Below are positions 23,107-23,179 of a stretch of DNA of 32,000 bases, piece after piece. Position 1 is the first letter of the stretch, and each line of letters begins with the position of its first letter. Under the pieces are notes generated by a model. The model was not told the origin of the DNA and did not search any database. It was given only the letters and a program-made list of their open reading frames with translations. This DNA is from a virus. The translations under genes were made by a program, and so were the position numbers. Location: positions 114,139 to 146,138 of the IMG/VR virus record IMGVR_UViG_3300035695_000001. One strand, 5' to 3'.

Positions 23107-23179
23107 TGGGGCCGGCTGGACTTGAACCAACGACCGGCAGCCCGAAGGCTGCTTGCTCTTTCTTCTGAGCTACGGCCCC
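23107..23179 (-). ncRNA. tRNA-like gene 3: anticodon arm is GCAGCC-UUCG-GGCUGC (6-bp stem, UUCG tetraloop); D loop lacks GG
   Basis: Hand fold of 73 nt: GGGGCCG-UA-GCUC-AGAAGAAA-GAGC-AA-GCAGCC-UUCG-GGCUGC-CGGUC-GUUGG-UUCAAGU-CCAGC-CGGCCCC-A. It starts 6 nt after the pth2 stop and ends 3 nt before gene 2. Confidence 0.55.

What the first reader, a model, noticed from the sequence alone, without database searches (positions are those of the whole stretch)
23107..23179. tRNA-like RNA whose anticodon arm is a 6-bp stem closed by a UUCG tetraloop
The plus strand at 23137-23152 reads gcagcccgaaggctgc, so the RNA is GCAGCC-UUCG-GGCUGC, a perfect hairpin of 16 nt. Two A residues, rather than one nucleotide, separate it from the D stem. 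The D loop (AGAAGAAA) lacks the conserved G18G19 that pair with the T loop. A more conservative reading is a decayed tRNA-Arg(UCG): loop C-U-UCG-G with one nucleotide missing. Even then a 6-nt loop that can close as C(UUCG)G should not decode.
Basis: seen in the sequence. Interest (0 to 1): 0.7.

Follow-up and report, generated by a model that had tools for sequence, protein, structure and literature searches.

The report
Phage tRNA mimic without an anticodon
A phage carries a perfectly folded tRNA look-alike whose anticodon loop has been replaced by a rigid 4-base cap, and the same kind of non-decoding tRNA recurs in many unrelated phages next to a peptidyl-tRNA hydrolase gene, so it is a conserved functional RNA (probably a tRNA decoy) and not a broken gene.

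Summary
On the minus strand at 23179-23107 lies a 73-nt cloverleaf (Rfam tRNA 48.9 bits; MFE structure 85% of the ensemble, z -4.5). Its anticodon arm is GCAGCC-UUCG-GGCUGC and its D loop has no GG. It is not a 1-nt-deletion pseudogene. It is the first of three odd tRNA-like genes (A, B, C) that follow a PTH2-type peptidyl-tRNA hydrolase gene behind one promoter. The PTH2-A-B-C cassette recurs in divergent phage and prophage contigs (PTH2 44-77% identical). There the A slot carries UUCG, GAGA, GAAA (twice), GCAA or other short non-anticodon loops on covarying stems; one relative has a normal tRNA-Arg(UCU) there, the likely ancestor. A search with the D-arm word alone recovered about 70 more such cloverleaves. 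Only 24% have a decodable arm, against 83% of neighbouring tRNAs, and 17 of 25 four-base caps are GNRA, UNCG or CUUG. Nine of those contigs also carry PTH2 nearby. Best reading: a conserved, non-decoding tRNA mimic in a phage translation-protection module, most likely a decoy for tRNA-binding host factors. That mechanism is inferred, not shown. I found no published description.

The parts
23107..23179 (-). tRNA-like RNA 'A' (the finding): 7-bp acceptor GGGGCCG/CGGCCCC, discriminator A, D arm GCUC-AGAAGAAA-GAGC, two A residues at position 26, capped arm, variable region CGGUC, T arm GUUGG-UUCAAGU-CCAGC. No CCA is encoded.
23137..23152 (-). Anticodon-arm substitute: 6-bp stem GCAGCC/GGCUGC closed by a C(UUCG)G tetraloop.
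23186..23479 (-). PTH2-family peptidyl-tRNA hydrolase gene (97 aa from the GTG at 23479; the open frame extends upstream to about 23506). Its stop codon lies 7 nt before RNA A.
   Evidence: Pfam PF01981; profile match to archaeal Pth2 structures; AF2 model pLDDT 94.8; Foldseek to Bit1 and archaeal Pth2, TM 0.73-0.83
23560..23587 (-). Sigma-70-like promoter TTGACA-16-TAGGAT (10 of 12 matches) upstream of PTH2. This is a consensus match only.
   Evidence: 1 found, against 0.2 expected in shuffles
23024..23103 (-). tRNA-like RNA 'B': normal D and T arms, with an arm of about 10 bp (one mismatch) topped by a G(CUUG)C tetraloop in place of an anticodon loop.
   Evidence: same type in L180, L181, L183, L188, L189, L208, L209
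22926..23000 (-). tRNA-like RNA 'C': 6-bp stem, 7-nt loop GUGUAGA (anticodon GUA), 5-nt variable region, CCA encoded at 22923-22925.

Best explanation
RNA A is a functional, conserved, non-decoding tRNA mimic, and it has three parts. (1) Shown: it keeps the acceptor stem, D stem, T arm, U8-A14 and G15-C48 of a tRNA. The anticodon loop has been replaced by a thermodynamically extra-stable cap, and the G19-C56 elbow pair has been given up. (2) Shown by comparative genomics: it belongs to a phage module in which a PTH2 peptidyl-tRNA hydrolase gene is followed directly by two or three such irregular tRNA-like genes. In the window the order is promoter, PTH2, A, B, C on one strand. (3) Inferred: the transcript is cut by RNase P and 3'-end enzymes like any tRNA precursor, giving a stable L-shaped RNA that the ribosome cannot use. 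This RNA acts as a decoy or competitive ligand for host factors that recognise tRNA by its body or its acceptor/CCA end. Candidates are acceptor-end toxins (GNAT acetyltransferases, toxSAS pyrophosphokinases, MenT nucleotidyltransferases) or tRNA nucleases, for which a capped arm would be an uncleavable substrate analogue. PTH2 meanwhile recycles blocked or dropped-off peptidyl- and N-acyl-aminoacyl-tRNA. Together they would protect translation during infection.
For: Structure: the cloverleaf is the MFE and centroid structure, and six orthologues fold the same way de novo with z -2.9 to -6.2. Selection: on 74 distinct members, 98.6% of cells are paired against 45-53% for slid controls; all 7 acceptor pairs, all 5 proximal arm pairs and 4 of 5 T pairs show compensatory changes. 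Non-decoding is the rule: 12 of 74 arms are even compatible with decoding. In the same loci, 12 of 50 motif-bearing tRNAs have a decodable arm against 349 of 418 other tRNAs, Fisher p 2e-17. Caps are selected for stability: 17 of 25 four-nt caps are GNRA, UNCG or CUUG against 5.6% expected. PTH2 linkage was found from both directions. PTH2 homologues have the RNAs directly downstream. Loci retrieved only by the RNA's D-arm word contain PTH2 within 2 kb in 9 contigs, 7 of them at 150 nt or less. This PTH2 subfamily matched only 1 of 50,697 catalogued phage genomes. CCA is encoded in 53 of 72 members. Promoter. Literature: PTH2 in phage tRNA arrays is read as rescue after tRNA damage (PMC7824862, PMC5966550); Pth reverses GNAT-toxin acetylation (PMC10435456); many toxins read only the acceptor stem and CCA (PMC11245113); phage tRNAs counter tRNA-targeting defences and 'may act as a decoy or supplement' (PMC13096335).
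Against: There are no expression, processing, aminoacylation or binding data, so the decoy step is pure inference. Acceptor stems and discriminators vary (A 47, U 12, G 11, C 2), so no single protein partner is indicated. GNAT toxins need an aminoacylated substrate, and most synthetases would not charge an RNA without an anticodon. In large jumbo-phage tRNA arrays the RNA occurs without PTH2 in the retrieved flank (49 of 62 loci). The covariation alignment was fitted to the model, and the family was ascertained through its D-arm word, so D-arm conservation is by construction. The p-values ignore relatedness between sequences.
Confidence: 0.45

Rival explanations
1. Processing punctuation. The tRNA-like fold serves only as an RNase P / RNase Z cleavage signal that separates the PTH2 mRNA, RNAs B and C and the downstream mRNA, as mascRNA does for MALAT1 or tRNAs do in mitochondrial transcripts. 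The anticodon arm is free to become any stable hairpin.
For: RNA A starts 7 nt after the PTH2 stop codon, and the three RNAs are 3 and 23 nt apart on one strand behind one promoter. Acceptor and T arms, the main RNase P determinants, are the best-conserved paired parts. The non-decoding arm parallels mascRNA (my knowledge). [quoted passage not shown]
Against: A single tRNA, or B and C themselves, would already provide the cleavage sites. The D arm, U8, A14, G15 and C48 are conserved although RNase P does not need them. Three distinct RNA types keep a fixed order across divergent cassettes. CCA is encoded in 74% of members. The elbow that RNase P stacks on is the part that is weakened.
Confidence: 0.2
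2. Dedicated carrier or PTH2 substrate. The mimic is charged, or receives a nascent chain, without codon reading. For example, it could enter stalled ribosomes, or serve a non-ribosomal transferase. PTH2 then hydrolyses the product, so the RNA and the enzyme form a two-part rescue or transfer system.
For: The linkage to PTH2 is tight and bidirectional. A release-factor-like gene lies beside PTH2 in L208. CCA is usually encoded. Loss of G19 recalls the non-proteinogenic tRNA-Gly of Staphylococcus, which is kept off the ribosome (my knowledge). tmRNA is a precedent for codon-independent entry into the A site.
Against: There is no conserved identity set. G3:U70 is absent in the window RNA, and discriminators and first base pairs vary. 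No SmpB-like partner or transferase was found among 30 window ORFs. EF-Tu delivery normally requires codon recognition.
Confidence: 0.15
3. Pseudogene. A is a tRNA-Arg gene that lost decoding through a small deletion, is drifting, and has no function of its own.
For: The nearest BLAST relatives are canonical tRNA-Arg(UCU) genes. L189 has an intact tRNA-Arg(UCU) in the same slot. L181 and L209 lack the A element altogether.
Against: Every stem is perfect, and the loop-flanking bases have become a sixth pair. Orthologues have different caps on different, fully paired stems of 5-7 bp. There is strong compensatory variation. Extra-stable tetraloops are enriched. About 70 independent examples exist in unrelated phages.
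Confidence: 0.07
4. Opposite-strand terminator. On the plus strand, the hairpin GGCAGCCCGAAGGCTGCT followed by TGCTCTTTCT acts as an intrinsic terminator, and the tRNA-like appearance is secondary.
For: The consensus scan lists it as terminator-like on the plus strand. The same 17-mer hairpin occurs as an ordinary terminator in 69 viral contigs.
Against: 2 such sites were found in the region against 1.2 expected by chance. The T run is interrupted and is part of the D arm. No plus-strand gene lies upstream to be terminated; coding is on the minus strand up to about 24570. This reading does not explain the acceptor and T arms or the family.
Confidence: 0.02

Closest known systems
Canonical elongator tRNA (Rfam RF00005), in particular phage tRNA-Arg(UCU)
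   Same: Cloverleaf with a 7-bp acceptor, 4-bp D stem, 5-bp T stem, T loop UUCAAGU, U8, A14, G15, C48 and a 5-nt variable region. It scores above the Rfam threshold. It probably descends from a tRNA-Arg, because the A slot holds a normal tRNA-Arg(UCU) in L189.
   Different: There is no 7-nt anticodon loop, no U33, no anticodon and no R37; the arm is 6 bp plus UUCG. G19 is replaced by A, and position 56 is variable in the family. There is an extra nucleotide at position 26.
YrlA / bacterial Y RNAs (tRNA mimics bound by Ro60/Rsr; also found in phages)
   Same: A non-decoding RNA that mimics the tRNA D arm, T arm and acceptor. YrlA is encoded by some phages and is processed by tRNA enzymes (PMC4201824). 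The one catalogued phage with this PTH2 subfamily, Mx1, also encodes a TROVE protein.
   Different: YrlA is circularly permuted: a closed stem-loop sits at the acceptor position and the ends lie at the anticodon position, continuing into a Ro60-binding helix. It sits next to Ro60. Here the ends are at the acceptor and the arm is capped. No TROVE gene was found in the window, and the Rfam YrlA score is 21 against a gathering score of 69.
mascRNA (MALAT1) and gammaherpesvirus MHV68 vtRNAs
   Same: tRNA-shaped RNAs with a non-functional anticodon arm, made from a longer transcript by RNase P and RNase Z and not used in translation (my knowledge).
   Different: Those are eukaryotic or eukaryotic-virus RNAs with no sequence relationship to this one. 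They have no linked peptidyl-tRNA hydrolase. Here several distinct mimic types are arrayed together.
Phage tRNAs that counter tRNA-targeting defences (T5/T6 tRNA-Tyr against retron-Eco7 and Septu; T5 tRNA-Lys against PARIS)
   Same: Phage-encoded tRNA-shaped RNAs with altered loops that escape host nucleases, discussed as 'decoy or supplement' (PMC13096335, PMC11245113).
   Different: Those tRNAs keep a working anticodon and replace the damaged host tRNA. RNA A cannot decode, so it could only act as a decoy or inhibitor.
Non-proteinogenic tRNA-Gly of Staphylococcus and tRNA-Other of Bacillus cereus
   Same: tRNA variants with an altered G18G19 that are kept out of ribosomal translation (my knowledge; tRNA-Other is cited in PMC5389517).
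   Different: They keep a normal anticodon loop, which their synthetases need, and they are cellular genes tied to cell-wall synthesis or regulation.
Irregular tRNA polycistrons and allo-tRNAs of Acidobacteria (Mukai et al. 2017)
   Same: Tandem arrays of odd tRNAs, some charged but not used in translation, associated with toxin-antitoxin loci (PMC5389517).
   Different: Those have 8/4 or 9/3 acceptor/T geometry, long variable arms and real anticodon loops. RNA A has 7/5 geometry, a short variable region and no anticodon loop.

Membership tests
tRNA (RF00005), as a decoding tRNA | Cloverleaf with acceptor, D and T arms, scoring above the Rfam gathering threshold | tested here: met
   48.9 bits against 29; the cloverleaf is the MFE structure
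tRNA (RF00005), as a decoding tRNA | 7-nt anticodon loop with U33, a 3-nt anticodon and a purine at position 37 | tested here: not met
   4-nt UUCG loop on a 6-bp stem; ARAGORN reports a 2-nt 'anticodon'
tRNA (RF00005), as a decoding tRNA | G18-G19 in the D loop pairing with Psi55-C56 | tested here: not met
   The D loop AGAAGAAA has no GG. In the family, GG is present in 1 of 50 members against 366 of 418 neighbouring tRNAs, and position 56 is C in only 33 of 50.
tRNA (RF00005), as a decoding tRNA | Aminoacylation and use on the ribosome | not testable with these tools
   Needs acid-gel or periodate assays and ribosome profiling
YrlA / Y RNA | Scores above the Rfam RF02553 threshold | tested here: not met
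   21.2 bits against 69, and the hit spans the junction of A and B. The YrlA authors describe this dimeric-tRNA false positive (PMC4201824).
YrlA / Y RNA | Permuted topology: the acceptor position is a closed stem-loop, and the 5'/3' ends form a Ro60-binding helix | tested here: not met
   The ends are at the acceptor stem and the anticodon position is the closed hairpin
YrlA / Y RNA | Encoded next to a Ro60/TROVE gene | tested here: not met
   No TROVE hit among 30 window ORFs scanned against Pfam. Not every small ORF was scanned.
tmRNA | tRNA-like domain with G3:U70 plus an mRNA-like tag reading frame | tested here: not met
   ARAGORN finds no tmRNA. Positions 3:70 are G-C, and the RNA is only 73 nt.
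tRNA-like processing elements (mascRNA / vtRNA type) | Cloverleaf with a non-decoding anticodon arm | tested here: met
tRNA-like processing elements (mascRNA / vtRNA type) | Cleavage by RNase P / RNase Z defines the end of a functional upstream transcript | not testable with these tools
   Only the position is known: 7 nt after the PTH2 stop codon
Phage PTH2-linked irregular tRNA cassette (working definition from this study) | PTH2-fold gene within about 150 nt on the same strand | tested here: met
Phage PTH2-linked irregular tRNA cassette (working definition from this study) | First RNA has a short D loop without GG and a 5-7 bp arm closed by a 4-5 nt non-anticodon loop | tested here: met
   Window and L207, L079, L180, L182, L188, L208, L179
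Intrinsic terminator | GC-rich hairpin followed immediately by a U run on the transcribed strand | tested here: not met
   On the minus strand the hairpin is followed by CGGUCGUUGG. The plus-strand match is weak and at chance frequency.

The most novel reading that the evidence does not exclude
The anticodon-less tRNA and PTH2 form a two-part, codon-independent rescue or counter-toxin device. In one version, the mimic is charged or accepts the nascent chain on ribosomes stalled by host tRNA depletion, and PTH2 then releases the peptide. In the other, the mimic is the first natural RNA anti-defence decoy that titrates tRNA-modifying toxins. Either way it would be an RNA-based phage countermeasure built from a tRNA whose anticodon has been removed.
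Probability: 0.15. Interest if true: 0.9.

Novelty: new variant of a known kind. Interest (0 to 1): 0.72.

Why it matters
Phage tRNA genes are usually explained by codon supply or, more recently, by replacement of host tRNAs destroyed by defence nucleases. A widespread class of phage tRNAs that cannot decode but is clearly under selection does not fit either explanation. Its linkage to a peptidyl-tRNA hydrolase points to a use of the tRNA shape itself, as a decoy, inhibitor or carrier, in the conflict over the host translation apparatus. The class is also an annotation blind spot. Such genes are called 'tRNA-???', mis-assigned to an amino acid, or left out altogether; for example, a tRNA-like gene is unannotated in Myxococcus phage Mx1. 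The cassette is small (about 650 bp) and easy to test genetically.

Tried and rejected
1. I searched IMG/VR for the 17-mer hairpin itself. All 69 hits were ordinary terminators with no tRNA context, so the search was uninformative.
2. An exact search for the 3' half, GGTTCAAGTCCAGCCGGCCCCA, gave no hits.
3. Megablast of 7 kb around the site against the phage and plasmid collections gave no match, so no close cultured relative exists.
4. The search for related loci with the primase gave no relatives.
5. A single-sequence PDB search with PTH2 missed the family; the profile search and fold search were needed.
6. My first acceptor-finding heuristic mis-parsed several sequences and was replaced.
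7. YrlA, tmRNA, terminator and attP-type readings were considered and rejected (see the membership table). No integrase was seen among the ORFs scanned near the cassette, and the RNA is a complete cloverleaf, not a 3' tRNA fragment.
8. I considered whether the purine-rich D loop pairs with the 3' end of 16S rRNA. Complementarity is only about 6 nt and depends on the host, so I dropped the idea.
9. I considered whether the arm carries a sequence-specific small RNA, as in a tRNA scaffold. The arms share no sequence and are mostly minimal capped helices, so I rejected this for type A.
10. Nine literature searches found no description of this class. The library lacks most subscription-journal papers, so prior description cannot be excluded.

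Full report
**1. The observation.**

The plus strand at 23137-23152 reads gcagcccgaaggctgc. The gene is on the minus strand, 23179-23107:

GGGGCCG-UA-GCUC-AGAAGAAA-GAGC-AA-GCAGCC-UUCG-GGCUGC-CGGUC-GUUGG-UUCAAGU-CCAGC-CGGCCCC-A

- ARAGORN calls it 'tRNA-???' with a 2-nt anticodon.
- Rfam's tRNA model scores it at 48.9 bits against a gathering score of 29, with the anticodon loop shortened in the alignment.
- RNAfold returns exactly this cloverleaf as both MFE and centroid: -38.2 kcal/mol, 85% of the ensemble, z = -4.5, and 0 of 200 shuffles fold as well.
- An independent sequencing run (L207) contains an identical copy.

The description is therefore accurate. One refinement, which is my own numbering: the D loop lacks the GG dinucleotide but keeps one G that can serve as G18. 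What is lost is G19.

**2. Context in the window.**

The window is 64-72% G+C and looks like a phage early/replication region. It encodes an SNF2 helicase, two DNA methylases, DUF5131, DnaB, a DnaG-type primase, an HTH repressor and a sigma-like protein. It has no near relative in the phage or plasmid collections.

RNA A is the first of three tandem tRNA-like genes on the minus strand.

- **B (23103-23024)** has normal D and T arms, but its arm is about 10 bp long and capped by G(CUUG)C.
- **C (23000-22926)** has a 6-bp stem and the loop GUGUAGA (anticodon GUA), with a short variable region.

Seven nucleotides upstream of A ends a 97-aa ORF. Several lines of evidence identify it as a PTH2-type peptidyl-tRNA hydrolase:

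- Pfam PF01981.
- A profile match to archaeal Pth2 structures over their full length.
- An AlphaFold model with pLDDT 94.8.
- Foldseek matches to human Bit1/PTRH2 and archaeal Pth2, TM 0.73-0.83.

A sigma-70-like promoter (TTGACA-16-TAGGAT) precedes this ORF. Promoter, PTH2, A, B and C therefore look like one transcription unit. This is an inference from the layout.

**3. Homologues reached through the protein.**

PTH2 relatives that are 44-77% identical were fetched from IMG/VR, Logan, JGI, ENA and GTDB genomes. Almost all have a gene-free gap of 240-310 nt directly downstream that contains the same kinds of RNA, usually in the same order.

The A slot reads as follows.

| Locus | A-slot arm |
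|---|---|
| window, L207 | GCAGCC-UUCG-GGCUGC |
| L079 | CCUGGG-UUCG-CCCAGG |
| L180 | CCGGG-GAGA-CCCGG |
| L188 | UCGGC-GAAA-GCCGA |
| L208 | CCAGCC-GAAA-GGCCGG |
| L182 | CCGAGGC-GCAA-GCCUCGG |
| L179 | CCGGG-CUGAC-CCCGG |
| L210 | UUUC cap |
| L186, L211 | 7-nt loop UCAAAAG without U33 |
| L189 | canonical tRNA-Arg(UCU) |
| L181, L209 | A element absent |

Each capped orthologue folds de novo into a clean cloverleaf.

The exact UUCG sequence is not conserved, but a short, stable, non-anticodon cap on a fully paired 5-7 bp stem is. Only one relative has a normal loop, and it is a tRNA-Arg. That matches the nearest cultured-phage BLAST hits, the canonical tRNA-Arg(UCU) genes of Erwinia phage Cronus and cyanophage S-RIM44. 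The likely history is a decoding tRNA-Arg converted into a capped mimic that was then maintained.

**4. Homologues reached through the RNA.**

I scanned IMG/VR for the D-arm word TAGCTCAG(N)AGAAAGAGC. This gave 98 hits, of which 72 distinct sequences are complete cloverleaves.

- The segment between the D and T stems is 18-61 nt, against 23 nt in a normal tRNA.
- A covariance model built from 35 members recovered 76 strong matches.
- On these, 98.6% of pair cells are standard pairs, against 45-53% when the partners are slid.
- All 7 acceptor pairs, all 5 proximal arm pairs and 4 of 5 T pairs show compensatory changes.
- Only 12 of 74 arms are even compatible with decoding (17 nt, U33, R37), and 25 end in a 4-nt loop.
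- Of those 25 caps, 17 are GNRA, UNCG or CUUG, against 5.6% expected from composition.

As a control I compared tRNAs within the same loci.

| Feature | With the D-arm word | Other tRNAs in the same loci |
|---|---|---|
| Decodable arm | 12 of 50 | 349 of 418 (Fisher p 2e-17) |
| GG in the D loop | 1 of 50 | 366 of 418 |
| C at position 56 | 33 of 50 | 347 of 377 where the T loop was located |

CCA is encoded in 53 of 72 members.

Three caveats apply. D-arm conservation is by construction, because the family was found through that word. The covariation alignment was fitted to the model. The p-values ignore relatedness between sequences.

**5. The PTH2 link is reciprocal.**

Among the loci retrieved only through the RNA word, nine contigs also encode a PTH2 homologue within 2 kb of the RNA. 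In seven of them the distance is 150 nt or less (L083, L090, L118, L133, L152, L158, L163). Yet this PTH2 subfamily matched only one of 50,697 catalogued phage genomes, Myxococcus phage Mx1. Mx1 itself has an unannotated irregular tRNA-like gene about 440 nt downstream of its PTH2 gene, and a TROVE gene nearby. Many other family members sit inside large tRNA arrays with no PTH2 in the retrieved flank.

**6. What it is and how it probably works.**

*Shown.* This is a conserved, structurally constrained tRNA mimic that cannot read codons, and it is genetically coupled to PTH2.

*Established elsewhere.*
- PTH2 in phage tRNA arrays has been interpreted as recycling of peptidyl-tRNA after host attack on tRNAs (PMC7824862, PMC5966550).
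- Pth reverses the damage caused by GNAT toxins that acetylate aminoacyl-tRNA (PMC10435456).
- A large set of toxins recognises only the acceptor stem and CCA (PMC11245113).
- Phage tRNAs neutralise tRNA-targeting defences such as retron-Eco7, Septu and PARIS (PMC13096335).

*Inferred.* RNA A is processed like a tRNA and acts as a decoy or uncleavable substrate analogue for such tRNA-binding host factors. Removing the anticodon and weakening the elbow keep it out of translation.

I give about 0.85 to 'functional non-decoding tRNA mimic in a PTH2 module' and about 0.35-0.45 to the decoy mechanism specifically. The rivals are:
- pure RNase P/Z punctuation (0.2);
- a charged carrier or PTH2 substrate, possibly a rescue device (0.15);
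- a drifting pseudogene (0.07);
- a plus-strand terminator (0.02).

**7. Comparison with known classes.**

- It passes the sequence and structure test for tRNA but fails the defining decoding features (see the membership table).
- It is not a YrlA Y RNA. The topology is not permuted, no Ro60 gene was found in the window, and RF02553 scores 21 against a gathering score of 69, on a dimeric-tRNA artefact (PMC4201824).
- It is not tmRNA.
- It works most like the non-decoding tRNA-shaped RNAs mascRNA and MHV68 vtRNA, and most like phage counter-defence tRNAs in its ecology, but it is unrelated to the former and non-decoding unlike the latter.
- Acidobacterial irregular tRNA polycistrons (PMC5389517) are a conceptual parallel with a different architecture.
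- Nine full-text searches found no description of tetraloop-capped, PTH2-linked phage tRNA mimics. The searchable library is incomplete.

**8. Verdict.**

It is best classed as a new variant of a known kind (tRNA-mimicking non-coding RNA). It forms a previously undescribed, widespread phage family with a specific protein partner. Interest is 0.72. The structure and the comparative evidence are strong and surprising for tRNA biology and for phage-host conflict, and the proposed function is directly testable, but so far it is only inferred.

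Noticed in passing
window 23024-23103 (-): tRNA-like RNA B has normal D and T arms, but the anticodon arm is a hairpin of about 10 bp with one C-U mismatch, capped by G(CUUG)C. The same long-arm type, with a CUUG, UUCG or related 4-nt cap, follows A in L180, L181, L183, L188, L189, L208, L209, L211 and L079.
   Followed up: partly
window 22926-23000 (-), CCA at 22923-22925: tRNA-like RNA C carries anticodon GUA (Tyr) in the loop GUGUAGA on a 6-bp stem, with only a 5-nt variable region. Bacterial tRNA-Tyr normally has a long variable arm. Septu and retron-Eco7 cleave tRNA-Tyr in that arm (PMC13096335), so C could be a cleavage-proof tRNA-Tyr or a decoy.
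   Followed up: partly
L075-L079, L117, L118, L133, L178 (Mx1), L191, L194, L197, L198, L206: A second irregular class: tRNA-like genes with an invariant 9-nt loop N-GUAAUGA-N on covarying stems (15 distinct sequences, 9 different stems). ARAGORN miscalls them as tRNA-Ile(AAU). They usually lie near PTH2. One copy is unannotated in Myxococcus phage Mx1 (OR576727.2, about 60058-60132).
   Followed up: partly
window 22359-22865 (-): The ORF immediately downstream of the RNA cassette has a good SD (GGAG) and an ATG start, and encodes a 168-aa Cys-rich protein with a hydrophobic N-terminus. Its C-terminus, CTSQTDCCSGSCNIGAADVSGTCN, resembles a cystine-knot spacing. It has no Pfam or PHROG hit.
   Followed up: no
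L208 1-359 (upstream of PTH2 at 1201-1536): A release-factor-like gene (PCRF and RF-1 domains) lies next to PTH2 in one relative. This is another translation-rescue component in the same neighbourhood.
   Followed up: no
L086, L100, L119, L131, L154: A sub-family of type-A RNAs shares the acceptor GGGGGAG and a conserved extended arm, CAAGG-AGU-CC-GUAA-GG-AAAA-CCUUG. The arm has an internal loop and a GNRA cap, which suggests a specific tertiary or protein-binding motif.
   Followed up: no
L186 743-820 and L211 1514-1586: Two A-slot RNAs from different cassettes have the same 7-nt loop UCAAAAG (no U33) on different stems. This hints at another conserved non-anticodon loop type.
   Followed up: no
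L130 and L166 (IMG/VR): The 5' half of a type-A RNA (acceptor and AGAAGAAA D arm) runs straight into a terminator-like GC hairpin followed by a T run, with no T arm. It is either a truncated copy or a different use of the D-arm module (list of unparsed hits).
   Followed up: no
L082, L085, L087, L093, L095, L099, L141, L144, L163: tRNAs with anticodon CUA (amber-suppressor type, which ARAGORN labels 'Pyl') are frequent in the same phage tRNA arrays. Two of them (L099, L144) carry the G19-less D arm.
   Followed up: no
L178 1602-3251 (Myxococcus phage Mx1): A TROVE/Ro60-like gene lies 0.8 kb upstream of the Mx1 PTH2 gene and tRNA-like genes. I did not look for a YrlA-type partner RNA there.
   Followed up: no
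window 23136-23153 (+): The complement of A's capped arm plus D arm is listed as a terminator-like site on the plus strand. It is probably incidental, since no plus-strand gene lies upstream.
   Followed up: yes
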